Part shown: piece after piece, positions 6,982 to 15,564 of the stretch
How positions within the stretch are numbered: the first letter of the stretch is position 1
How the letters are laid out: every line of letters begins with the position of its first letter
From: Candidatus Undinarchaeota archaeon
GTDB lineage: Archaea > Undinarchaeota > Undinarchaeia > Undinarchaeales > UBA543
Length of the DNA: 64,000 nucleotides
Direction: 5' to 3'
NCBI GenBank assembly: GCA_964567575.1
Contig: CAZMMZ010000003.1
Location: forward strand, 1-64,000
Made by a program: the position numbers and the translations under genes
The notes under the pieces: generated by a model
The model's input: the letters and a program-made list of their open reading frames with translations, nothing else
The model's database searches: none
What the model was told of the DNA's origin: nothing

Positions 6982-7410
6982 TTACTCTTGTTCTTGTGGT
7001 GCTGGAACTGGGTCTGAAGGTTGTGGTGCTTCTGGTTGCGGTTCAGGGGCTGGTTCTGGTGCAGGCTCTGGCTCAGGTTCTTCAGGGGTAGCTTCTGGTT
7101 CTTCAGGGGTAGCTTCTGGTTCTTCAGGAGCAACAGGAGTTTCTTCAGGAACTTCTGTAACTGCTGGTTGTTCTGGTTCTTCCACTGTTGATTCTTCTGG
7201 CACTGGTGTTGTGTCTAATGGTTTTACTTCAATTGCACCAGTTGGGCATGCGCCTTGGCAAGCTCCACATTCAATACAATGATTTGGTTTGAAATCCTGT
7301 GTTTCAACTCTTGGGAATCCTTCAGAGTCCTTATCAATTGCAGTTACTGGACATACTCCAATACATGCATAATTTTTTTGACATTTTGTTTTATCTACTA
7401 CTGCTGGCAT
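6982..7410 (-). CDS. 2x[4Fe-4S] ferredoxin with long Pro/Glu-rich tail
   Basis: CQKNYACIGVCP and CIECGACQGACP; likely start MPAVVDKTKC. The tail has a 21-nt tandem repeat (PEEPEAT) at 7076-7117. Confidence 0.9.
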   Translation of the reverse strand: MPAVVDKTKCQKNYACIGVCPVTAIDKDSEGFPRVETQDFKPNHCIECGACQGACPTGAIEVKPLDTTPVPEESTVEEPEQPAVTEVPEETPVAPEEPEATPEEPEATPEEPEPEPAPEPAPEPQPEAPQPSDPVPAPQEQE

Positions 7411-7522
7411 TTTATTTTCCTCGTGCGTTTGGTTGAGAATAATTGTATTTAAGTTTATCCGCTTCTGCAAATTTTTTACACACCTGGAAACTTTATTAAA
7501 GAAACAATGCTTGTTTTATTCT

Positions 7523-8494
7523 ATGAAGTCTTCAGCAATTGCTCACTCAAATATAGCACTTATCAAATACTGGGGACGCTCTTCAGAATTGAATATCCCA
7601 CTGAACGACAGTATCAGCATGACAAAAAATGGTATTGGGGATATTAAACTCAAAGCTCATACAACAATTGATTTTTCTGAAGATTTTTCTGAAGATGTTG
7701 CAATTCTCAATGGAGAACAATTATCTGATAGAAATCTTGAAAGAATTCTTTTGGTTATCAATCCTTTGCGAGAAAAATCTGCAATTAATTTAAATTTTAA
7801 AATGGAAAGCAAAAATGATTTTCCCACACAAAGTGGACTTGCATCGTCTGCTGCTGGTTTTGCAGCGCTTGCAACTGCTGCATCTGCTGCACTTGAATTA
7901 AAATTATCAAAAGAAGAATTATCAACATACGCGCGTCTCGGCTCTGGATCTGCAGCTCGTTCAATTCATGACGGCTTTGTCCATTGGCATACTGGTGAAG
8001 ATCATGAAAGTTCTTTTGCTGAGCAAATCTGCGAACCAAATGATTTTCAAATGAATGCTGTTATTGCAGTTATTAATGAGGAGAAAAAGAAAGTCACTTC
8101 TGATGTTGGTCATGATTCTGCTTTTACAAGTCCGTTGAATTCTCCAAGAGTAACACGATCTCAAGAGCATGCTGAATTAATTCGCAAAGCAATTCTTGAT
8201 GATGACTTTACAACTGTTGGAAAAATCGCAGAGAGCAGTGCGCTTTACATGCATGCAGTAATGATGACTTCAAACCCTGCTTTGTATTATTGGTCTTCTA
8301 AAACTGAAAAAGTCATGGACTTAGTTCGAGATTCTGATATCAATTGTTTCTTTACAATTGATGCCGGTCCGAATGTTCATGTTCTATGCAGACCTGAGAA
8401 TCGCGAGGAAGTTGAGAAACTTCTTTCAGATTACAAAACAATTCCTGCTGAACCAGGAGAAGGTTCTTCAGTGGTGCAGGAACACTTATTTTAA
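7523..8494 (+). CDS. mvaD: Mevalonate (di)phosphate decarboxylase, likely phosphomevalonate decarboxylase (PMD, Chloroflexi-like)
   Basis: AHSNIALIKYWG, GLASSAAG, RLGSGSAARS and TIDAGPNVH motifs. S-x-x-G-H and MHAVMMTS-P-L-YW recall Chloroflexi PMD rather than the SR-x-GM of DMD. Confidence 0.88.
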   Translation: MKSSAIAHSNIALIKYWGRSSELNIPLNDSISMTKNGIGDIKLKAHTTIDFSEDFSEDVAILNGEQLSDRNLERILLVINPLREKSAINLNFKMESKNDFPTQSGLASSAAGFAALATAASAALELKLSKEELSTYARLGSGSAARSIHDGFVHWHTGEDHESSFAEQICEPNDFQMNAVIAVINEEKKKVTSDVGHDSAFTSPLNSPRVTRSQEHAELIRKAILDDDFTTVGKIAESSALYMHAVMMTSNPALYYWSSKTEKVMDLVRDSDINCFFTIDAGPNVHVLCRPENREEVEKLLSDYKTIPAEPGEGSSVVQEHLF

Positions 8495-8517
8495 GGGGAG
8501 GAAACTATCACAATTCA

Positions 8518-9177
8518 ATGAAGGATAAAGCAGTAATCTTTGACATGGATGGTGTAATTGTTTATACTCTAGATCATCATTATGCAGCTTGGAAAGATCT
8601 TCTTGCAGAACGAAATATTAATTTTTCGCGTAATGAATTCAACAATATGATTGGTCAATCTTCTCAGGCATTTATTCAATCTCTTCGACTAAAAGGACTT
8701 AAAGGTGGTGAAAAACGATTAGTAGAAGAGAAAGATAAAAGATATCTTCAAAAATTCAAGGAGAAAGCACCGCCTCTTGTTGATGGTTTTCTTCCTATCC
8801 TTGAGGACATAAAAGATATTGATCTTAAAACAGCAATCGCAACTTCCGAGCCAATGGAAATTATGAATGCAACAATAATAGAATATGGTTTGCTAAATAA
8901 ATTTGATGAGTTTGTAACTTCTGATGATGTTAAAAATTTAAAACCAGATCCTGAAATATATTCCTTAACTTCTCAGAAATTAAATGTTTCTCCTCAAAAT
9001 TGTATAGTTTTTGAAGATTCACCTAGTGGTGTTAAATCTGCAAAAAAGGCAGAAATGTATTGTATTGCATTGACAACTTCTTATTCAAAAAATGAATTAA
9101 AAAAAGCTGGAGCAGATAAAATAATAACTAATTTCACTGAAATAAATCTTGGAGACATATTAGATGCACTTAACTAA
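8518..9177 (+). CDS. HAD-family phosphatase (beta-PGM-like)
   Basis: FDMDGVI motif I, KPDPEIY and FEDSPSGV. Confidence 0.9.
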   Translation: MKDKAVIFDMDGVIVYTLDHHYAAWKDLLAERNINFSRNEFNNMIGQSSQAFIQSLRLKGLKGGEKRLVEEKDKRYLQKFKEKAPPLVDGFLPILEDIKDIDLKTAIATSEPMEIMNATIIEYGLLNKFDEFVTSDDVKNLKPDPEIYSLTSQKLNVSPQNCIVFEDSPSGVKSAKKAEMYCIALTTSYSKNELKKAGADKIITNFTEINLGDILDALN

Positions 9178-10312
9178 AAACGAGGAGCAAATCCTCAATG
9201 GGGAACAAGGCGAAGCTAAACAAAAAGCTCTCAAAATTCTTGTCAAGCTCGGTGATAAAGAAAAATCTGATAATCTAATACCGATACGAAGTGCACACGT
9301 CCCAAATATTTCTTATACAGAACTTTCTGAAAGCGAAGTAACTACATTAGAAAAATGGGCAGAGCATTTTCCAAAAGTTGAAGTTCCAACAACTTTGAAT
9401 GCAGGTGGTGTTTCCCAACGAACTCCTGATTTTGTTGATGACTTACCAAAGCAAGGTCAAATCATAAATTCTTTCAAAGCGTTCCATACTATTCCCGTTC
9501 TTACAACTGCTCCATATACAATTGGTTATATTCCAAAAGAAGGAAATGATATTGCGTGGGGTCATGATAGTGCAGTTGTTTATGCAAATTCAGTTCTTGG
9601 TGCGTGCACAAATAATCATCATTGGAAAACTGCACTTGCTTCAGCACTTCTTGGAGTAACTCCAAATTCCGGATTGCATCTTCAAGCCAACCGCGAACCT
9701 GAAATAAATTTGAAAGTTAAGGAAAAACTTTTCGGTTATGAAGATTTCAGTGCACTTGGATATTATGTTTCAAAAGAATATTCAAATCAAATTGTAAATT
9801 TTAGTTTTCCTTCAAAGCCAAACAAGGAAAATCTACAGGCGCTTGCTTCTGGTTATTCCACTAATACAAAGAAATACATGTTTACAATTGGAAATAAAAT
9901 TGACGCCGAAAAAATTGAAGTTGGATTTGATGAAATCGATACAGTTTTCCAGGAATTCTCTGCTGAAGATCCAGATTTCGTTGCTCTTGGTTGTCCTCAT
10001 TTTTCAAATTCTGATTTCCAAAAAATTGCAAGAATTCTGAAAGGGAAGAAACTTCAGAAATCTGCGAAGTTTTGGATTTACACTGCTGAAAAAATTCGCG
10101 CTGATTTAGAACTTGATGGGCATGAGGATTCTATAAAGAAAGCTGGATGTTATGTTGCAACTGATGCATGTCCGAGCCTTGCTCCTCTTGAAAAGTTTGG
10201 AATAAAATGTGTTATGTCAAATTCTGCAGAGCTATGCGCAAAAGTTAAAAGCATGGGTCTTAAAGCTCACTTATCAAGCTTTGACGATATTGTCAAGTGG
10301 GGGTTTAGATGA
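9164..10312 (+). CDS. Aconitase X catalytic (phosphomevalonate dehydratase large subunit-like) protein, divergent active site
   Basis: MHLTKNEEQILNGEQG, SAVVYANSVLGA and GCPH; several conserved motifs altered (see findings). Confidence 0.85.
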   Translation: MHLTKNEEQILNGEQGEAKQKALKILVKLGDKEKSDNLIPIRSAHVPNISYTELSESEVTTLEKWAEHFPKVEVPTTLNAGGVSQRTPDFVDDLPKQGQIINSFKAFHTIPVLTTAPYTIGYIPKEGNDIAWGHDSAVVYANSVLGACTNNHHWKTALASALLGVTPNSGLHLQANREPEINLKVKEKLFGYEDFSALGYYVSKEYSNQIVNFSFPSKPNKENLQALASGYSTNTKKYMFTIGNKIDAEKIEVGFDEIDTVFQEFSAEDPDFVALGCPHFSNSDFQKIARILKGKKLQKSAKFWIYTAEKIRADLELDGHEDSIKKAGCYVATDACPSLAPLEKFGIKCVMSNSAELCAKVKSMGLKAHLSSFDDIVKWGFR

Positions 10313-11253
10313 AGAATCCAACTGGTTCAGCATGTGGAAAAATAATACTTTTCGGAGAACACTCTGTTGTGTATGGTCATCCTGCGATAGCAGTCCCTGT
10401 TACAGCATTACATGCTGATGTTTTTATTCAACCAGCTGAGACATTAGTAATTTCATCTCGAAATTTTAATACTGAATATGAAATCTTGAAAAATCCTTTA
10501 AATAAAAATGAAACTGGTTTTGGACTTCAAGAAACAGTTCTAAACACTTTGAAATTTTTCAATCTTCTAAAGAAGCAGAATATTCACATTACAATTGATT
10601 CTTCAATTCTTCCAGCATCTGGTTTGGGGAGTAGTGCTGCTGTTGCTGTTGCAATTATCCGCGCGCTTTCAAATTATTTCAAAAAGAAAATTTCAAATAA
10701 AGATTTGTATGATCTAGCTTTCAAAACTGAAGTGATTTATCATGGGGATCCAAGTGGTATTGACCCTGCAGTAATTATTCACGAAAAACCGGTTTACTTT
10801 AAGAGTGGTAAAAAAACTCGTCTTGAACCACTAAAGGTTGCTAACAAAATTCCTATTATAATTGCTGACACCGGAGTTCGCAGTTCAACAAAGGAAGTTG
10901 TTTCTGATGTGAAAAAAGCAAGAGCAAGCGACAAAGATAAGTATGATACAATTTTCAGTGAGATAATTCCTATTGTTCATCGGGTACGCGATGTTATAGA
11001 AAAAGGAAATGTTTCAGAGCTTGGCAGATTAATGAATGAAAATCACGAACTTCTAAAACAAATTGATGTTTCAAGTCCTGAACTTGATTTGCTTGTTGAA
11101 TCTGCGCGCGAGGCAGGAGCAACAGGAGCTAAACTCGCTGGTGCAGGAAGAGGCGGCCACATCATAGCGTTGGCTGAGGATAATGTGCAAAAAATCAGCA
11201 AAGCGCTTGTAGATGCTGGAGCATCCCATATTTTCTTTACTGAAATTGTTTGA
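10309..11253 (+). CDS. mvk: Mevalonate kinase 1 (bacterial/Chloroflexi-like)
   Basis: GKIILFGEHSVVYG, SGLGSSAA, HGDPSGID (catalytic Asp intact) and GAKLAGAGRGG. Confidence 0.9.
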   Translation: MKNPTGSACGKIILFGEHSVVYGHPAIAVPVTALHADVFIQPAETLVISSRNFNTEYEILKNPLNKNETGFGLQETVLNTLKFFNLLKKQNIHITIDSSILPASGLGSSAAVAVAIIRALSNYFKKKISNKDLYDLAFKTEVIYHGDPSGIDPAVIIHEKPVYFKSGKKTRLEPLKVANKIPIIIADTGVRSSTKEVVSDVKKARASDKDKYDTIFSEIIPIVHRVRDVIEKGNVSELGRLMNENHELLKQIDVSSPELDLLVESAREAGATGAKLAGAGRGGHIIALAEDNVQKISKALVDAGASHIFFTEIV

Positions 11254-11307
11254 GAAAACTTAAATAGGACTTTATGGAACTGAGAGCTATTCGAAGTGAT
11301 ATATACA

Positions 11308-12234
11308 ATGATAACAGCTTCTGCCCCAGGTAAAGTAATACTCTTTGGTGAGCACGCTATGGTTTTTGGCGAGCTTGGCATTGCTACTGCAATTGAGAAA
11401 CGAGCATACGTTACAATTTGTGAGCTCGATGAACCAAAAATCGTAGTGCAGTCTAAGAATGTAGAGACTACAATTGAACTTCCTTCTTCTGAACGACCAA
11501 AAGAACCAATTACAAAAGCTGCACGCCTTGCTCTTGCAAAATGTGGGCACAAAGATCAAGGTCTTGGTATTGAGATTAATTCTGAAATTCCACAAAGCGC
11601 AGGTCTTGGTGCATCAGCAGCGATTTGCACTGCAACTGCAGCTGCTGTTCTCAAGATGTTTGAAAGCGAACTTGATATTATGAAAGTTGCAGAGATTGCA
11701 TACGAAGCTGAGAAAACAATTCATACTAATCCTACTGGTGTTGAAACTGCAGTCACAACTGTTGGTGGAACAATTGCTTTCCATCGCGGGCAAGTTGAAG
11801 CATTGAAAACCGAATCATTAAGCATGGTTGTTGCAAACACTGGATTTACAAGCAATGCAGAATCAATGATTAAATTAGTTAAACAACATATTGAGGATCC
11901 TCGAATGGGTTGCACACTTTTCTCAATTGGTGGATTAGTTAAACAAGCAAAAGATGCTATTTTGAGAAATCAATATTCTGTTATTGGAAACTTAATGTAT
12001 AAAAATCACGATTATCTAAAAAATCTTGGAGTAAGTTCACCGGAACTTGAGAATCTTGTAAAGCGCTCAAAAGATGCAGGTTCCCCTGGTGCAAAGCTTA
12101 CTGGTTTTGGTGGTGGTGGTTCTATGATTGCATTAGCCAAAGATCCTGATCCTCTTGTTGATGCTCTTAAATCATCTGGAGCAAAAGTTTTCAAAACCAT
12201 GACAGGACAGAATGGTGTAAGAATTAAAGAGTAA
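11308..12234 (+). CDS. Mevalonate kinase 2 (archaeal-like GHMP kinase, catalytic Asp->Glu)
   Basis: APGKVILFGEH, AGLGASAA, HTNPTGVE and GAKLTGFGGGG. Confidence 0.82.
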   Translation: MITASAPGKVILFGEHAMVFGELGIATAIEKRAYVTICELDEPKIVVQSKNVETTIELPSSERPKEPITKAARLALAKCGHKDQGLGIEINSEIPQSAGLGASAAICTATAAAVLKMFESELDIMKVAEIAYEAEKTIHTNPTGVETAVTTVGGTIAFHRGQVEALKTESLSMVVANTGFTSNAESMIKLVKQHIEDPRMGCTLFSIGGLVKQAKDAILRNQYSVIGNLMYKNHDYLKNLGVSSPELENLVKRSKDAGSPGAKLTGFGGGGSMIALAKDPDPLVDALKSSGAKVFKTMTGQNGVRIKE

Positions 12235-12274
12235 ACTCAAACTATAAATATTCTAAAACAAAGTTATTCTTGGG

Positions 12275-13039
12275 ATGGTAAAGGATTTAATTTTCATTAA
12301 GCTTGGAGGCTCGGCTATTACTAACAAGTCTGTTGAAAATTCTCTTAATGAAAAAGTTTTGAATCAAGTTTCAAAAGAAATTTCTGAATGCAAAGATTTT
12401 AATTTTTTAATTGGTCATGGTGGTGGTTCATTCGCGCATCCTATTGCAGCGAAATACAATGTTCAAAATGGGTTGCAAGGTAGCAGTCTTGAAGGATATT
12501 CTAAAACTCGAAAAGCTGTTGATGATTTAGGAGAAATAGTAACTGGTTCATTAACATCTGCTGGAGTTCCAGCAGTTTTTCTTCCAACTTCTACTCTTGC
12601 TGTAATGAAAAACGGAGAAGTAAAAGAATTTTTCACTTCTCCAATTGAAAAATATCTTGAAACTGGGAAAGTTCCTGTACTTCCTGGAGATGTTTGCCTT
12701 GATTATGAAAAAGTTTTTTCAATTGCATCAACTGAAATGATTTTTAATTTCCTGGCAAGTAAATTCAATCCAGTAAAACTTATTATTGGAACAAATGTCG
12801 ATGGTGTGCTTGATAACGATATTGTGATTCCTGAGATAAATCATCAAAACTTCAATAAAGTATTGGAAAAACTCGGTGGTTCTGCTGGAGCAGATGTGAC
12901 TGGTGGGATGAAACACAAAGTTGAAGAACTAAGTAAAACACATATTGACGTTCATATCATTAATATTCAGGAAGAAGGGAGATTGAAAAAAGCCATTCTT
13001 GGAGAAGATGTTATTGGAACGAGGTTGATTTTTAAATGA
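12275..13039 (+). CDS. ipk: Isopentenyl phosphate kinase
   Basis: KLGGSAIT, HGGGSFAH with the IPK-signature His, PGDV and DVTGGMKHKV; operon context. Confidence 0.92.
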   Translation: MVKDLIFIKLGGSAITNKSVENSLNEKVLNQVSKEISECKDFNFLIGHGGGSFAHPIAAKYNVQNGLQGSSLEGYSKTRKAVDDLGEIVTGSLTSAGVPAVFLPTSTLAVMKNGEVKEFFTSPIEKYLETGKVPVLPGDVCLDYEKVFSIASTEMIFNFLASKFNPVKLIIGTNVDGVLDNDIVIPEINHQNFNKVLEKLGGSAGADVTGGMKHKVEELSKTHIDVHIINIQEEGRLKKAILGEDVIGTRLIFK

Positions 13040-14076
13040 CAGGGGAAACAGAATCTCGAAAGTTAGATCATATAATGATCTGTACTGAGAAGGATGTCCA
13101 ATCTCAAAAATCAACACTTTTTGAGTGTGTTGATTTTTTGGATGGTCCTAAATTTTTAAGTGAACCTGATTTAGATTGTAGCACAACTTTTTTCAAAAAG
13201 AAATTGAATTATCCAATTATAATTGCTGGAATGACAGGGGGTGTTGCCGATGCTGAGCAAATTAATAAAAATTTAGCTCAAGCTGCTGAAGAGCTTGGTC
13301 TTGGTTTTGGTCTTGGTTCACAACGAGCAATGCTTGAAAATCCAACTTTGAAAAAGACATACGAAGTGCGAGATATTGCTCCTAATGTTCTATTACTTGG
13401 AAATATTGGAGCTGCGCAACTTTCTGAATATTCACAAGAACAAATTGAAAATCTTGCATTAACTGTTGGCGCAAATGTTTTGGCTGTTCATCTAAATTCA
13501 ATTCAGGAAAAAATTCAACCTGAAGGAAATCTTCCTGATATTGATTATTCTGAAAAAGTAAAACAATTATGTTCTTCTGTAAAACTTCCAGTTATCCTTA
13601 AAGAAACTGGTATGGGCATTTCTTCAAAAGATGCTCACAGTTTCAGAGAATCTGGAATTGCAGGAATTGATGTTGGTGGTGCAGGTGGAACTTCTTTCGC
13701 ACGAGTTGAACTTGAGCGTGGTGGAAATGGGGAATTCCATAATCTGGAAAATTCAGGAATTCCAACTGCAGCTAGTATCCTTGAAGTCAGAAAAGTATTT
13801 CCTAATATTCCAATAATTGCTACTGGTGGGATTCGGACTGGGTTTGATGTTGCAAAATCAATAGCCCTTGGCGCAGATGTTGCTGGTATAGCTCTTCCTT
13901 TATTGAAACCAGCGCAGGAAAGTACTGAAGCTGTTGTTGGGAAGCTTGAAAAAATAATTGAGGATTTGAAAAAAGCAATGATTTCTTCAAATTCTCCAAC
14001 TGTAAGTGATTTAAAGGCAGATAAGATTAACATAAATGGAGAATTGCTTGAATGGGTAGAAAACTTGAAAAATTAA
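13036..14076 (+). CDS. fni: Type 2 isopentenyl-diphosphate isomerase
   Basis: RKLDHI, AGMTGG, GSQRAML, HLNSIQE, KETGMG, GAGGTSF and TGGIRTG. Confidence 0.95.
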   Translation: MTGETESRKLDHIMICTEKDVQSQKSTLFECVDFLDGPKFLSEPDLDCSTTFFKKKLNYPIIIAGMTGGVADAEQINKNLAQAAEELGLGFGLGSQRAMLENPTLKKTYEVRDIAPNVLLLGNIGAAQLSEYSQEQIENLALTVGANVLAVHLNSIQEKIQPEGNLPDIDYSEKVKQLCSSVKLPVILKETGMGISSKDAHSFRESGIAGIDVGGAGGTSFARVELERGGNGEFHNLENSGIPTAASILEVRKVFPNIPIIATGGIRTGFDVAKSIALGADVAGIALPLLKPAQESTEAVVGKLEKIIEDLKKAMISSNSPTVSDLKADKININGELLEWVENLKN

Positions 14077-14897
14077 AGGCGTTTAGTGAATTAATTCGTA
14101 TTAAGGAAACATTTTTTGTTTTTGTTTCTGTTCTTGCAACTATTCTATTATGTCAAGGGAATGTGTTCAATTGGAAAATCACTCTTCCAGCTTTGTTGGC
14201 AATCATTTTTATTGCAGCTGGTGGAAATATGATAAATGATTCTTTTGATTTTTTTATTGATCTTGTTAATCGTCCTGACAGACCATTACCTTCTGGTCGG
14301 TTTTCAAGGAAGAATGCAAAGAGATTGTCTTTTGTTTTATTTTTTATTGGAATATTTTTTTCATTATTTCTTCCATTGCTTTCAATAGTTATTGCATGTT
14401 TTACAGTAGTCCTTTTAATATTCTATTCTTATTTTTTCAAAAGAAGTGGTTTTTTAGGGAATTTTTTTGTAAGTTATATGTTCGCATCTATTTTTGTTGC
14501 TGTAGCTGCTACAACTCCTAATTTAATGACTGGTATTTTTATTGGGATCTTGGCATTCTTTACTTCATCTGCTCATGAAATTCTAAAAGATATGGAAGAT
14601 GTTCGTGGTGATAAAATCGGTGGTGTAAAAACACTTCCAATAAATCATGGAATCAAAAAAACCAATTTTATTGTTTTTTCATTCCTTCTTATAGCAATTC
14701 TTTTCACCCCAATCCCGTATTTTCTTGGGTTAGTTTCTTTTTATTATCTCTTTGTTATTTTCATTGCTGATTTGGTTTTCGTAAAAGTTATATTATCAGT
14801 ACTCCGTAGTTCTTATACAAATCCAACCAAAAATGTTAATCTCATTTTATTTGGTGTTGGTATTGTGTTCTTGGCATTTTTTGCCGGGTTGCTATAA
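14052..14897 (+). CDS. UbiA-family prenyltransferase, probable DGGGP synthase
   Basis: GNMINDSFDFFIDLVNRPDRPLPSG and HEILKDMEDVRGD motifs; multi-TM. Confidence 0.85.
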   Translation: MGRKLEKLKAFSELIRIKETFFVFVSVLATILLCQGNVFNWKITLPALLAIIFIAAGGNMINDSFDFFIDLVNRPDRPLPSGRFSRKNAKRLSFVLFFIGIFFSLFLPLLSIVIACFTVVLLIFYSYFFKRSGFLGNFFVSYMFASIFVAVAATTPNLMTGIFIGILAFFTSSAHEILKDMEDVRGDKIGGVKTLPINHGIKKTNFIVFSFLLIAILFTPIPYFLGLVSFYYLFVIFIADLVFVKVILSVLRSSYTNPTKNVNLILFGVGIVFLAFFAGLL

Positions 14898-15169
14898 TGG
14901 CCATTTCAAAAGCAGCTACACTTTCAGTATTACTCGCAGTTGTGCTATTATACCTCACACCACTCCACCCTGCAGCTGTTTTTGTTATAGCAGGTATCGG
15001 TGTTACATTTCTTTACCGTGCAATAAAAGGATGTTTTAATTTCGTTAACCCAATGGCAATTACTGGAGTTGGAGTTGTTGTTGTTCTTCATTATTTCTAC
15101 CCTAACCTAATTGTTGCTCTTGTTGCTGGTCTTGCAATTTCTGTTATTACTGGTCTAGTACTTCCATAA
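14897..15169 (+). CDS. Small membrane protein
   Basis: 90 aa, almost entirely hydrophobic; start overlaps the UbiA stop. Confidence 0.65.
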   Translation: MAISKAATLSVLLAVVLLYLTPLHPAAVFVIAGIGVTFLYRAIKGCFNFVNPMAITGVGVVVVLHYFYPNLIVALVAGLAISVITGLVLP

Positions 15170-15207: not shown

Positions 15208-15564
15208 GTGATTTCAATGAAGGGGTTCAAAACATTTCTTATAGGGCTTGCTGGCTTTGTTTCTATTGTACTAACTGCATTTTTCTTCAACATAAATATG
15301 GGAGTTTTATTATTCACTATTGTTATTTTCTCTTTTATTCATCCAACAGTTTCTTTTATTCATTCAAATAAATCCACTGATTCGTATGTAGATGATACGG
15401 TTTCTAATATCGAAGCTACTCCTGAAATTATAGAACACCTTGAAGAAAAAGTTCATGATGTTATTGACTTCACAAAAGAAAAAGTTTCAAAAACATGGAA
15501 GCAATACACCACTGAAGCAGAATCAATAGCATGCGAGCTAACTGATTTTATGCATTCAAAATAA
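15208..15564 (+). CDS. Hypothetical membrane protein
   Basis: Two N-terminal TM segments and an acidic C-terminus. Confidence 0.55.
   Translation: MISMKGFKTFLIGLAGFVSIVLTAFFFNINMGVLLFTIVIFSFIHPTVSFIHSNKSTDSYVDDTVSNIEATPEIIEHLEEKVHDVIDFTKEKVSKTWKQYTTEAESIACELTDFMHSK

What the first reader, a model, noticed from the sequence alone, without database searches (positions are those of the whole stretch)
7523..14897. Hybrid mevalonate operon combining parts of two pathway variants plus extra genes
Eight co-oriented, partly overlapping genes run mvaD-like decarboxylase, HAD phosphatase, AcnX large subunit, kinase 1, kinase 2, IPK, IDI-2 and UbiA (seen). The known variants are eukaryote-type (MVK, PMK, DMD), haloarchaea/Chloroflexi-type (MVK, PMD, IPK), archaeal/Aeropyrum-type (MVK, AcnX large+small, UbiD/UbiX, IPK) and Thermoplasma-type (established). 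This operon has a complete MVK-PMD-IPK-IDI route. It also keeps full-length archaeal-route genes whose active sites are altered, without their partners, plus a phosphatase. Inference: this is either a pathway replacement caught mid-way or a new branch/regulatory module built from the old enzymes.
Basis: partly seen in the sequence, partly recalled or inferred. Interest (0 to 1): 0.88.

Follow-up and report, generated by a model that had tools for sequence, protein, structure and literature searches.

The report
Mevalonate operon keeping rewired orphan dehydratase
A tiny marine DPANN archaeon (Undinarchaeales) replaced its lineage's usual route to lipid building blocks with an imported decarboxylase and kinase, yet kept the old dehydratase's large subunit and the old kinase, both with altered active sites and both under strong purifying selection, so they probably now do a different, still unknown job.

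Summary
Window 7523-14897 holds eight co-oriented, partly overlapping genes: MVD-family decarboxylase, HAD phosphatase, lone AcnX large subunit, two mevalonate-kinase paralogs, IPK, IDI-2 and UbiA.

The decarboxylase has the PMD signature (His kept, DMD Lys/Arg absent). With IPK present and no PMK, the working route is MVK-PMD-IPK-IDI2.

Across the 17 Undinarchaeota species genomes held, nine have AcnX large and small subunits plus UbiD in the same operon frame. The other eight have an MVD-family decarboxylase instead, and none has both. The query's genus has PMD where UbiX-UbiD sat and an Anaerolineae-like MVK where the small subunit sat.

The retained large subunit descends from the native one. 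It sits on a long stem branch and has lost one Fe-S cysteine and every mapped mevalonate-phosphate carboxyl and hydroxyl ligand. Its dN/dS of 0.13 is among the lowest in the operon. The native kinase carries Glu for the catalytic Asp (dN/dS 0.12).

This is a completed in-situ pathway replacement with repurposed old enzymes, not decay. Their new function is unknown.

Earlier first-reader notes in this scan flagged the same orphan gene. I found no published description.

The parts
7523..8494 (+). Phosphomevalonate decarboxylase (PMD-type member of the MVD family), acquired by transfer.
   Evidence: PF22700 and PF18376 match, and TIGR01240 scores 248 bits. The best solved relative is the Anaerolinea PMD 6N0X (237 bits, against about 195 for DMDs). 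The PMD His is kept, and the Lys and Arg equivalents of DMD are absent. It is 53-65% identical to Micrarchaeia, Bathyarchaeia, Promethearchaeota, Thermoplasmatota and some bacterial sequences, but only 36-38% and 29-30% to the decarboxylases of two sister genera. The longer TTG-started frame from 7433 is not supported by homolog N-termini.
8518..9177 (+). HAD-IA phosphatase or phosphomutase-like hydrolase; an old, dispensable member of the operon.
   Evidence: PF13419 matches at 113 bits and the best subfamily is the beta-PGM-like TIGR02009. The DxD, T/S, K and ED motifs are intact. Homologs at 31-33% identity lie directly upstream of canonical AcnX large subunits in G002 and G003. In the G012/L070 species an unrelated 156-aa ORF takes its place.
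9164..10312 (+). AcnXL*: orphan, rewired derivative of the native phosphomevalonate dehydratase large subunit.
   Evidence: PF04412 matches at 302 bits, and it aligns to 7CNR at E 5e-53 over the full length. Residues invariant in 116 canonical homologs are replaced, in TkAcnX numbering: C110 to T, E129 to H, S130 to D/E/R, K361 to E, Y365 to K/S, G48 to N. C283, C342, N79 and S50 are kept, and new conserved Cys appear at query positions 148 and 358. The clade is sister to the native G009-type gene, on a stem of 1.05 substitutions per site with crown branches of about 0.1. dN/dS is 0.13. No small subunit is found in three genomes of the genus.
10309..11253 (+). MVK_A: xenologous mevalonate kinase with canonical catalytic motifs, sitting where the AcnX small subunit lies in relatives.
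   Evidence: TIGR00549 scores 266 bits. The best solved relatives are bacterial MVKs. It is 44-50% identical to Anaerolineae MVKs but 31-43% to the other MVK-like kinases of Undinarchaeota, the native ones included. In the tree it is sister to the Anaerolineae clade (98% SH-aLRT). The K, GLGSSAA, SGID and GAGRGG motifs are intact.
11296..12234 (+). MVK_B: native mevalonate kinase ortholog with Glu in place of the catalytic Asp. The real start is probably the ATG at 11308.
   Evidence: TIGR00549 scores 231 bits. It groups with native Undinarchaeales MVKs (99%). Glu aligns with M. mazei MK Asp138 in all three genomes of the genus. It is 80-84% conserved within the genus, with dN/dS 0.09-0.12.
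12275..13039 (+). Isopentenyl phosphate kinase.
   Evidence: NF040647 scores 198 bits against a cut-off of 120. It holds the same operon position in all relatives.
13036..14076 (+). Type 2 IPP isomerase.
   Evidence: TIGR02151 scores 347 bits against a cut-off of 281.
14052..14897 (+). UbiA-family prenyltransferase (DGGGP-synthase-like).
   Evidence: PF01040 matches at 150 bits. NF009523 and NF009521 score 208-214 bits, below their cut-offs. It is the last conserved gene of the operon across the phylum.
14897..15169 (+). 90-aa hydrophobic ORF, co-oriented and conserved in the genus.
   Evidence: It has no family match. It is 71% identical in G013 and 53% in L070 at the same position. The sequence is largely hydrophobic.
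15208..15564 (+). 118-aa ORF with a hydrophobic N-terminus, the last co-oriented gene.
   Evidence: It has no reliable family match. It is 41-52% identical at the same position in G013 and L070.

Best explanation
The cluster is the lower mevalonate operon of an Undinarchaeales (DPANN) archaeon in which the ancestral archaeal route was replaced in place by the ATP-dependent route.

Inferred flux:
- Mevalonate is phosphorylated by MVK_A, possibly also by MVK_B.
- PMD decarboxylates mevalonate 5-phosphate to isopentenyl phosphate.
- IPK makes IPP.
- IDI-2 makes DMAPP.

What was replaced:
- PMD occupies the former UbiX-UbiD position.
- An Anaerolineae-like MVK occupies the former AcnX small-subunit position.

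What was kept: two native proteins with changed active sites.
- The AcnX large subunit (AcnXL*) has lost one Fe-S cysteine and all the carboxyl and hydroxyl ligands of mevalonate 5-phosphate.
- The native kinase (MVK_B) has Glu for the catalytic Asp.

Both are under strong purifying selection. They are repurposed, not decaying.

Shown: gene content, phyletic complementarity, ancestry of each gene, residue changes and selection.

Inferred: AcnXL* no longer dehydrates mevalonate 5-phosphate. My committed guess, at about 40%, is that it acts as a ligand- or metal-binding accessory (regulatory or scaffold) protein of the pathway, perhaps together with MVK_B. A new catalytic activity gets about 25%.
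For: Gene identities.

PMD type:
- Best solved relative is Anaerolinea PMD 6N0X. The two positions mutated in 6N0Z (N to K, H to M) read gap/Arg and His here.
- The motif criterion comes from PMC11052028.
- IPK is present, and the only other GHMP kinase in the genome is HddA-like.

Phyletic pattern in the 17 genomes of the phylum:
- AcnXL, AcnXS and UbiD occur together in 9.
- An MVD-family decarboxylase occurs in the other 8.
- None has both.
- The lone AcnXL occurs only in the query's genus.

Gene orders:
- Relatives: UbiX-UbiD-(GHMPx or HAD)-AcnXL-AcnXS-MVK-IPK-IDI2-UbiA.
- Here: PMD-HAD-AcnXL*-MVK_A-MVK_B-IPK-IDI2-UbiA.

Ancestry:
- MVK_A is sister to Anaerolineae MVKs, and MVK_B groups with the native MVKs.
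- AcnXL* is sister to the native G009-type gene, on a 1.05 stem.

Residue roles:
- TkAcnX structure paper PMC8184944.
- ApPMDh Cys-to-Ala mutants keep under 4% activity, PMC10040528.
- The replacements are seen.

Selection, G000 against G013: AcnXL* 0.13, MVK_B 0.12, PMD 0.21, IPK 0.30, UbiA 0.33.

Uniqueness: only the query's own 50% cluster among the 150 best of 1.84 billion representatives shows the multi-site rewiring.
Against: - No biochemical data exist.
- dS between the compared species is about 1.1-1.6 (near saturation), so dN/dS values are approximate. The ranking by amino-acid identity gives the same order.
- The genomes of the genus are only 78-82% complete, so absence of the small subunit, UbiD and UbiX rests on three incomplete genomes plus contiguous operons.
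- AcnXL* keeps two cluster cysteines and gains two conserved ones, so it may still bind a cluster and be catalytic.
- Asp to Glu in MVK_B is conservative and may leave kinase activity.
- The accessory or regulatory role has no direct evidence.
Confidence: 0.75

Rival explanations
1. AcnXL*, with HAD and/or MVK_B, is a new enzyme forming a side branch of the pathway. It would use a rebuilt metal or cluster site (two old Cys, new Cys and His) on a substrate other than mevalonate 5-phosphate.
For: - Selection is strong and the protein keeps its full length.
- C283 and C342 are kept. New conserved Cys at query positions 148 and 358, and conserved His at the former E129 and at query position 152, lie at or within a few residues of mapped active-site positions in the sequence.
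- The gene is translationally coupled to HAD and MVK_A.
- The AcnX family has already swapped cluster ligand positions between its types.
Against: - The catalytic Ser and a carboxyl ligand come from the small subunit, which is absent.
- The sister lineage consists of 200-227-aa proteins covering only the C-terminal half. The two with that region intact (L072 short, P0401) have Ser at both remaining Cys positions; P0470 keeps one Cys and is cut before the other.
- HAD is missing in one species that keeps AcnXL*.
Confidence: 0.25
2. The operon is a replacement caught mid-way. AcnXL* and MVK_B are functionless leftovers that have not yet been deleted.
For: - Their partners are gone.
- Their active sites are damaged.
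- Two sister genera with an MVD-family decarboxylase have lost AcnXL entirely.
Against: - dN/dS is 0.13 and 0.12, the lowest in the operon.
- Both are 78-80% identical between species whose PMD, IPK and UbiA are 47-67% identical.
- The frames are intact in G000 and G013 and on metagenome contig L070 (the G012 species); G012's own copy is cut by a contig end.
- The stem is long but the crown is short.
- A 745-kb streamlined genome is unlikely to carry 2 kb of junk inside an operon.
Confidence: 0.04
3. The route is eukaryote-type. The decarboxylase is a DMD (or dual DMD/PMD) and one MVK paralog, most plausibly MVK_B with its altered base, is the phosphomevalonate kinase.
For: - TIGR01240 (DMD) scores above its cut-off while the haloarchaeal PMD model does not.
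- Public annotations call the relatives DMD.
- Two MVK-like kinases are otherwise redundant.
- Some Chloroflexota enzymes are reported to be dual.
Against: - The DMD Lys and Arg193-equivalent are absent and the PMD His is present.
- IPK is retained in the operon.
- Both kinases score as MVK (231-266 bits) and only 36-62 bits on the PMK models.
- MVK_B is the ortholog of the single MVK in relatives.
- Related genomes on the archaeal route also carry two MVK paralogs.
Confidence: 0.07
4. AcnXL* is still a phosphomevalonate dehydratase working with an unrecognised partner, so the operon runs both routes, as in Lokiarchaeia.
For: Dual-route operons exist in Promethearchaeota (PMC11052028).
Against: - There is no UbiD or UbiX to consume the product.
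- The site-A Cys is lost, and each single Cys-to-Ala change in ApPMDh leaves under 4% activity.
- K361, E129, S130 and Y365 are all replaced.
Confidence: 0.02

Closest known systems
Haloarchaea/Chloroflexota-type mevalonate pathway (MVK, PMD, IPK; Haloferax volcanii, Roseiflexus, Anaerolinea thermophila PMD 6N0X)
   Same: The enzyme set is the same. The decarboxylase has the PMD His and lacks the DMD Lys. IPK is present and PMK is absent. One kinase is most closely related to Anaerolineae MVKs.
   Different: It sits in a DPANN archaeon, inside the frame of an archaeal-route operon. The PMD belongs to a clade shared by Micrarchaeia, Bathyarchaeia, Asgard, Thermoplasmatota and some bacteria. The operon also carries a rewired AcnX large subunit, a second (native) MVK and a HAD.
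Archaeal (Aeropyrum-type) pathway: phosphomevalonate dehydratase AcnX type IIb (ApPMDh; TkAcnX 7CNR/7CNS) with UbiD-type decarboxylase and UbiX
   Same: AcnXL* is a full-length homolog descended from the native large subunit. It keeps two of the three cluster Cys and part of the phosphate-binding loop. It holds the same operon position next to MVK-IPK-IDI2-UbiA.
   Different: There is no small subunit, UbiD or UbiX. The site-A Cys and all mapped carboxyl and C3-OH ligands are replaced. It cannot be filed as a PMDh.
Chimeric or dual-route mevalonate operons of Asgard archaea (PMC11052028, 2024)
   Same: PMD and AcnX genes occur in one operon, and the PMD is 57-60% identical.
   Different: The Asgard operons keep complete, canonical AcnXL, AcnXS and UbiD, so both routes look intact. 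Here only a rewired large subunit remains.
Catalytically inactive aconitase-family regulators (IRP2 and apo-IRP1, apo-aconitases that bind RNA); analogy from general knowledge, not tested
   Same: An aconitase-superfamily protein is kept under selection after its cluster-dependent catalysis is lost or switched off.
   Different: There is no evidence here for RNA binding or iron sensing. AcnX is a distant branch, and this protein lacks the fourth domain altogether.
In-situ xenologous gene displacement within conserved operons (general concept)
   Same: Foreign genes of equivalent pathway role occupy the exact slots of the displaced native genes.
   Different: Two displaced native genes were not lost but retained in altered form.

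Membership tests
Phosphomevalonate dehydratase large subunit (AcnX type IIb) | Homology to AcnX (PF04412) over its full length. | tested here: met
   302 bits over positions 1-400 of the 400-position profile. Aligns to 7CNR at E 5e-53.
Phosphomevalonate dehydratase large subunit (AcnX type IIb) | Three conserved Cys ligands of the [4Fe-4S] cluster (TkAcnX C110, C283, C342). | tested here: not met
   C110 is Thr in all four variant sequences. It is Cys in 116 of 116 canonical homologs. Each single Cys-to-Ala change in ApPMDh leaves under 4% activity.
Phosphomevalonate dehydratase large subunit (AcnX type IIb) | Substrate ligands E129, S130, K361 and Y365. | tested here: not met
   They read H, D/E/R, E and K/S. 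The canonical residues are invariant or nearly so in 116 homologs.
Phosphomevalonate dehydratase large subunit (AcnX type IIb) | A partner small subunit (PF01989) supplying the catalytic Ser. | tested here: not met
   No PF01989 match in G000, G012 or G013, and no tblastn match. These genomes are 78-82% complete.
Archaeal-type mevalonate pathway | UbiD-type decarboxylase and UbiX. | tested here: not met
   No PF01977 match in the three genomes of the genus. No PF02441 match and no tblastn match to a relative's UbiX in G000.
Phosphomevalonate decarboxylase (PMD) | MVD-family fold with the PMD His, lacking the DMD Lys and the Arg that binds the beta-phosphate. | tested here: met
   using the criterion from PMC11052028. 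Substrate preference itself is not testable here.
Diphosphomevalonate decarboxylase (DMD) | A conserved Lys in the YWGK motif and a companion PMK. | tested here: not met
   The motif reads YWGR with a one-residue gap. No PMK-like gene is present. TIGR01240 does score above its cut-off.
Mevalonate kinase | TIGR00549 above its cut-off, plus the Lys, the GLGSSAA loop and the catalytic Asp (MmMK Asp138). | tested here: met
   This holds for MVK_A (10309-11253): 266 bits and all motifs canonical.
Mevalonate kinase | Catalytic Asp (MmMK Asp138, human Asp204). | tested here: not met
   MVK_B (11296-12234) has Glu at this position in all three genomes of the genus. The other motifs are kept. The effect of Asp-to-Glu on activity is unknown.
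HAD superfamily, subfamily IA | Motifs I-IV (DxD, S/T, K, acidic pair). | tested here: met
   PF13419 at 113 bits. Motifs seen by inspection. The substrate is unknown.
Isopentenyl phosphate kinase / type 2 IDI | Curated equivalog model scores above its cut-off. | tested here: met
   NF040647 scores 198 against 120. TIGR02151 scores 347 against 281.

The most novel reading that the evidence does not exclude
Displaced enzymes of an essential pathway were recycled into a new function. AcnXL* would found a new AcnX type that works without the swivel domain, on a rebuilt 2-Cys/His/acid site, as a metabolite- or metal-sensing regulator or as a new enzyme. It would act together with a 'retired' native mevalonate kinase. 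The same fate befell the native kinase in three Undinarchaeales lineages, and the native AcnX in a second lineage, where it survives as a half-length protein without the cluster cysteines.
Probability: 0.3. Interest if true: 0.8.

Novelty: new variant of a known kind. Interest (0 to 1): 0.62.

Why it matters
Archaeal membranes depend on the mevalonate pathway, and how its four variants turned into one another is an open question.

This phylum holds the ancestral operon, the replaced operon and a state in which the old genes persist in altered form, all in one conserved gene frame. The replacement can therefore be read step by step.

It also yields two concrete candidates, a rewired AcnX large subunit and mevalonate kinases with a changed catalytic base. 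These test the idea that displaced enzymes are kept for non-catalytic or new roles. They also extend the AcnX family beyond its two characterised activities.

Tried and rejected
Contexts of P0002-P0005, P0401 and P0470 could therefore not be fetched directly. I used the genome search, the fetch from genomes and the two collection scans instead.
- The metagenome scan did not return the contigs of P0401 or P0470. It did give L072, with a similar short form.
- Single-sequence AlphaFold2 of AcnXL* was unusable (mean pLDDT 38.5).
- An AU test could not reject a single clade for the decarboxylases of the three Undinarchaeales genera (p 0.61). Two of them sit on branches of 4-5 substitutions per site. 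'Independent acquisitions' therefore remains an inference from identities (57-65% to other phyla, against 29-38% within the order).
- dN/dS for MVK_A (G000 against G013) could not be computed because dS is saturated.
- My G005-G007 value for AcnXL came from a mis-framed coordinate and is discarded.
- I looked for a disguised small subunit among the neighbouring small ORFs. The 90-aa and 118-aa ORFs are hydrophobic and match no family.
- MVK_A is not the ortholog of the extra kinase (GHMPx) of related genomes. They form separate clades.

Full report
**What is there.** Between 7523 and 14897, eight genes lie on the + strand. Overlaps are 14, 4, 4 and 25 nt, and gaps are 23-42 nt. Pfam and NCBIfam identify them as follows:
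- an MVD-family decarboxylase;
- a HAD-IA hydrolase;
- a full-length AcnX large subunit (PF04412, 302 bits);
- two GHMP kinases, both scoring as mevalonate kinase above the curated cut-off (266 and 231 bits);
- isopentenyl phosphate kinase;
- type 2 IPP isomerase;
- a UbiA prenyltransferase.

Two small hydrophobic ORFs (14897-15169 and 15208-15564) continue the cluster and are conserved in the genus.

**The organism and the rest of the pathway.**
- The window is contig C3 of a 745-kb, 18-contig genome estimated 82% complete.
- Source names on close homologs ('Candidatus Undinarchaeales archaeon') and earlier notes of this scan place it in Undinarchaeales (DPANN).
- A candidate HMGS, a thiolase, a DUF35 protein and a class II HMG-CoA reductase lie together on contig C7.
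- A polyprenyl synthase lies on C2.
- No GGGP synthase was found, in line with Dombrowski et al. 2020 (PMC7414124).
- The genome has no AcnX small subunit (PF01989), UbiD or UbiX.
- Its only other GHMP kinase is HddA-like.

**Which route operates.**
- The decarboxylase's best solved relative is the Anaerolinea thermophila phosphomevalonate decarboxylase 6N0X (237 bits, against about 195 for true DMDs).
- At the two positions that differ between 6N0X and its engineered variant 6N0Z (N to K and H to M), the query has a gap followed by Arg, and His.
- The position of the DMD Arg that binds the beta-phosphate (my recollection of S. epidermidis R193) is Asp.
- A 2024 survey uses the same Lys/His criterion to separate DMD from PMD (PMC11052028).
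- IPK is retained and no PMK exists.

The working route is therefore MVK, PMD, IPK, IDI-2. This is inferred from sequence and has not been assayed.

**The replacement seen across the phylum.** In the 17 species genomes held for the phylum:
- AcnX large subunit, AcnX small subunit and UbiD occur together in nine.
- An MVD-family decarboxylase occurs in the other eight, which belong to three genera.
- No genome has both sets.
- The ninth 'over cut-off' PF22700 hit, in G004, is a cross-match on its kinase.
- Only the query's genus (G000, G012, G013) keeps an AcnX large subunit without its partners.

Gene orders:
- G005, G007, G008: UbiX-UbiD-GHMPx-AcnXL-AcnXS-MVK-IPK-IDI2-UbiA.
- G009: UbiX-UbiD-AcnXL-AcnXS-MVK (the contig ends there).
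- G003: MVK-UbiD-HAD-AcnXL-AcnXS-UbiX-IPK-IDI2-UbiA.
- G002: UbiD-HAD-AcnXL-AcnXS-UbiX-IPK-IDI2-UbiA.
- G011: PMD'-MVK-IPK-IDI2-UbiA.
- Query's genus: PMD-HAD-AcnXL*-MVK_A-MVK_B-IPK-IDI2-UbiA.

PMD therefore sits in the UbiX-UbiD slot and MVK_A in the small-subunit slot. The intergenic gaps leave no room for remnants.

**Origins of the parts.**
- *MVK_A* is 44-50% identical to Anaerolineae kinases, but 31-43% to the other MVK-like kinases of Undinarchaeota, the native ones included. It is sister to the Anaerolineae clade (98% SH-aLRT).
- *MVK_B* groups with the native kinases (99%).
- *PMD* is 53-65% identical to sequences from Bilamarchaeaceae (Micrarchaeia), Bathyarchaeia, Promethearchaeota, Thermoplasmatota, KSB1 and Cytophagia. 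It is only 36-38% and 29-30% identical to the decarboxylases of the two sister genera, whereas native genes of those genomes are 35-50% identical to the query's.
- A tree nests the query's PMD in that mixed clade. An AU test cannot reject one origin for all Undinarchaeales decarboxylases (p 0.61), because the others sit on branches of 4-5 substitutions per site. Separate acquisitions are likely but not proven.
- *HAD* aligns end to end at 31-33% identity with HAD genes that sit directly upstream of canonical AcnXL in G002 and G003. This level is close to that of the other vertically inherited genes in those genomes, so HAD is probably an old operon member.
- The G012 species (metagenome contig L070) has an unrelated 156-aa ORF in the HAD position. 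AcnXL* therefore does not depend on HAD.

**The orphan AcnX large subunit.**
- It aligns over its whole length with TkAcnX (7CNR).
- Residue roles come from the TkAcnX-substrate structure (PMC8184944) and from ApPMDh mutagenesis (PMC10040528).
- Compared with 116 canonical homologs, the variant clade (query, P0002, P0003, P0004) replaces residues that are otherwise invariant:
  - cluster ligand C110 to Thr;
  - E129 to His;
  - S130 to Asp, Glu or Arg;
  - K361 to Glu;
  - Y365 to Lys or Ser;
  - G48 to Asn in three of the four;
  - an invariant Arg-Glu pair (query positions 151-152) to Asn/Ser-His.
- C283, C342, N79 and S50 are kept.
- Cys at query positions 148 and 358 is conserved in the clade; most canonical homologs have another residue at both.
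- Each single Cys-to-Ala change in ApPMDh leaves under 4% activity. The catalytic Ser lies in the missing small subunit. Dehydratase activity is therefore very unlikely.
- An exhaustive HMMER search of 1.84 billion representatives found the multi-site rewiring only in the query's own 50% cluster among the best 150.

**Not decay.**
- In the AcnXL tree, the variant clade is sister (99%) to the canonical genes of G009 and P0005, from the same order. Its stem is 1.05 substitutions per site and its crown branches are about 0.1. That is a burst of change followed by constraint.
- Nei-Gojobori estimates between G000 and G013:

| Gene | dN/dS |
|---|---|
| MVK_B | 0.12 |
| AcnXL* | 0.13 |
| IDI2 | 0.15 |
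| PMD | 0.21 |
| IPK | 0.30 |
| UbiA | 0.33 |
| HAD | 0.35 |

- dS is about 1.1-1.6, so these values are rough.
- Amino-acid identities agree with them: AcnXL* 78%, MVK_B 80%, PMD 67%, IPK 56%, MVK_A 54%, UbiA 47%.
- The frames are intact in G000 and G013 and on metagenome contig L070 (the G012 species). G012's own copy and contig L071 are cut by contig ends.

**A second retained derivative.**
- Three metagenome proteins of 200-227 aa (L072:348-1031, P0401, P0470) cover only the C-terminal half of AcnXL.
- The L072 protein is 50-51% identical to AcnXL*, against 38% to the next-best gene. P0401 and P0470 are 42-48% identical to it.
- They form its sister group (95%).
- L072 short and P0401 have Ser at both remaining cluster Cys positions. 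P0470 keeps the first Cys and is cut before the second.
- On L072, the short gene lies between UbiD and GHMPx, in an operon that also holds a canonical AcnXL of the G005/G008 type.
- The native AcnXL lineage has therefore been kept in altered form in at least two settings. One follows displacement by PMD. The other sits beside a different canonical AcnXL.
- That two of the three short forms carry Ser at both remaining Cys positions argues for a role that does not need the cluster. I could not test whether the short forms are functional.

**The native kinase shows the same pattern.**
- The Asp that aligns with M. mazei MK Asp138 is Glu in MVK_B in all three genomes of the genus.
- In human MK, mutating this Asp to Ala or Asn lowers kcat more than 40,000-fold without changing substrate binding (PMC6283576).
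- It is Asn in the native kinases of G005, G006 and G007. In G008 the glycine-rich phosphate loop is broken instead.
- Each of these genomes also has a second, canonical MVK-like gene. That gene, GHMPx, is 49-51% identical to the kinase of Promethearchaeota operons.
- All genomes with a single MVK keep the Asp.
- The Asp-to-Asn kinase is strongly constrained: dN/dS 0.044 at dS 0.60 between G005 and G006.
- These represent three lineages, not seven independent events.

**Most likely mechanism.** Flux runs through MVK_A (and perhaps MVK_B), PMD, IPK and IDI-2. AcnXL* and MVK_B are repurposed derivatives of the displaced native enzymes.
- About 40%: AcnXL* is a ligand- or metal-binding accessory (regulatory or scaffold) protein.
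- About 25%: it is a new enzyme.
- Under 5%: it is junk.
- About 2%: it is still a dehydratase.
- About 7%: the decarboxylase is a DMD and MVK_B is the PMK.

**Comparison with what is known.**
- The haloarchaea/Chloroflexota route and the archaeal route are both established.
- Chimeric and dual-route operons are tabulated for Asgard archaea (PMC11052028). I saw intact dual-route operons in Promethearchaeota.
- The Undinarchaeota paper speaks only of 'the archaeal mevalonate pathway'. Of the searches I ran for the two lower-pathway enzymes and for AcnX, none returned a paper describing an orphan rewired AcnX large subunit, and the only search that included the phylum name showed no account of this replacement.
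- Two earlier first-reader notes of this scan flagged the same gene.
- I rate this a new variant of a known kind.

Noticed in passing
L037:3900-4844 (G005), L064:5159-6202 (G006), L043:4500-5438 (G007), L036:9308-10216 (G008): The native mevalonate kinases of four related genomes on the archaeal route have lost canonical catalytic features. Three have Asp to Asn and one has a broken GLGSSAA loop. Each genome also carries a second, canonical, Asgard-like MVK (GHMPx). The Asn form is under strong purifying selection (dN/dS 0.044).
   Followed up: partly
L043:713-2851 (G007:C115): A single 712-aa open frame appears to fuse the UbiD-type decarboxylase with the GHMPx mevalonate-kinase paralog. Part of the stretch is masked, so the fusion needs checking.
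   Followed up: no
L072:348-1031: A 227-aa protein with Ser at both remaining cluster-Cys positions matches only the C-terminal half of AcnX large subunits and is sister to the query's AcnXL*. It lies between UbiD and GHMPx in an operon that also has a canonical AcnXL. An unassigned 225-aa ORF (974-1651) overlaps its end.
   Followed up: partly
window 8518-9177 vs L031 (G013): The HAD gene has the highest nucleotide identity of the operon between the two species (0.79-0.86 in 150-nt windows). Its synonymous divergence is unusually low (dS 0.42 against about 1.2 elsewhere). This hints at recent exchange or a constraint at the DNA or RNA level.
   Followed up: partly
L070:352-822: In the G012/Tara species, an unrelated 156-aa ORF with no family match replaces HAD between PMD and AcnXL*.
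   Followed up: partly
L044:6707-7348 (G002), L040:7206-7862 (G003): A HAD-IA gene sits directly upstream of the canonical AcnX large subunit in two distant Undinarchaeota. An unexplained phosphatase may therefore be an old companion of the archaeal route.
   Followed up: partly
window 6982-7470 (-): A divergently transcribed ferredoxin-like protein of the 2x[4Fe-4S] type abuts the operon. It is conserved at the same place in G013 and G012, and lies near the operon in G008.
   Followed up: no
L047, L050, L052, L063 (Promethearchaeota): These operons carry UbiD, AcnXL, AcnXS and PMD side by side, followed by MVK, IPK and IDI2. Both routes from mevalonate 5-phosphate to isopentenyl phosphate look intact there.
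   Followed up: partly
L056, L057, L060, L061: Close relatives (53-56%) of this PMD occur in KSB1 and Cytophagia bacterial MAGs, so the clade crosses domains.
   Followed up: no
window 14052-14897 and the whole genome: The operon ends in a DGGGP-synthase-like UbiA gene, and the genome has a polyprenyl synthase. No GGGP synthase (PcrB family) was found in the 82%-complete genome. The acceptor substrate of this prenyltransferase is therefore unclear.
   Followed up: partly
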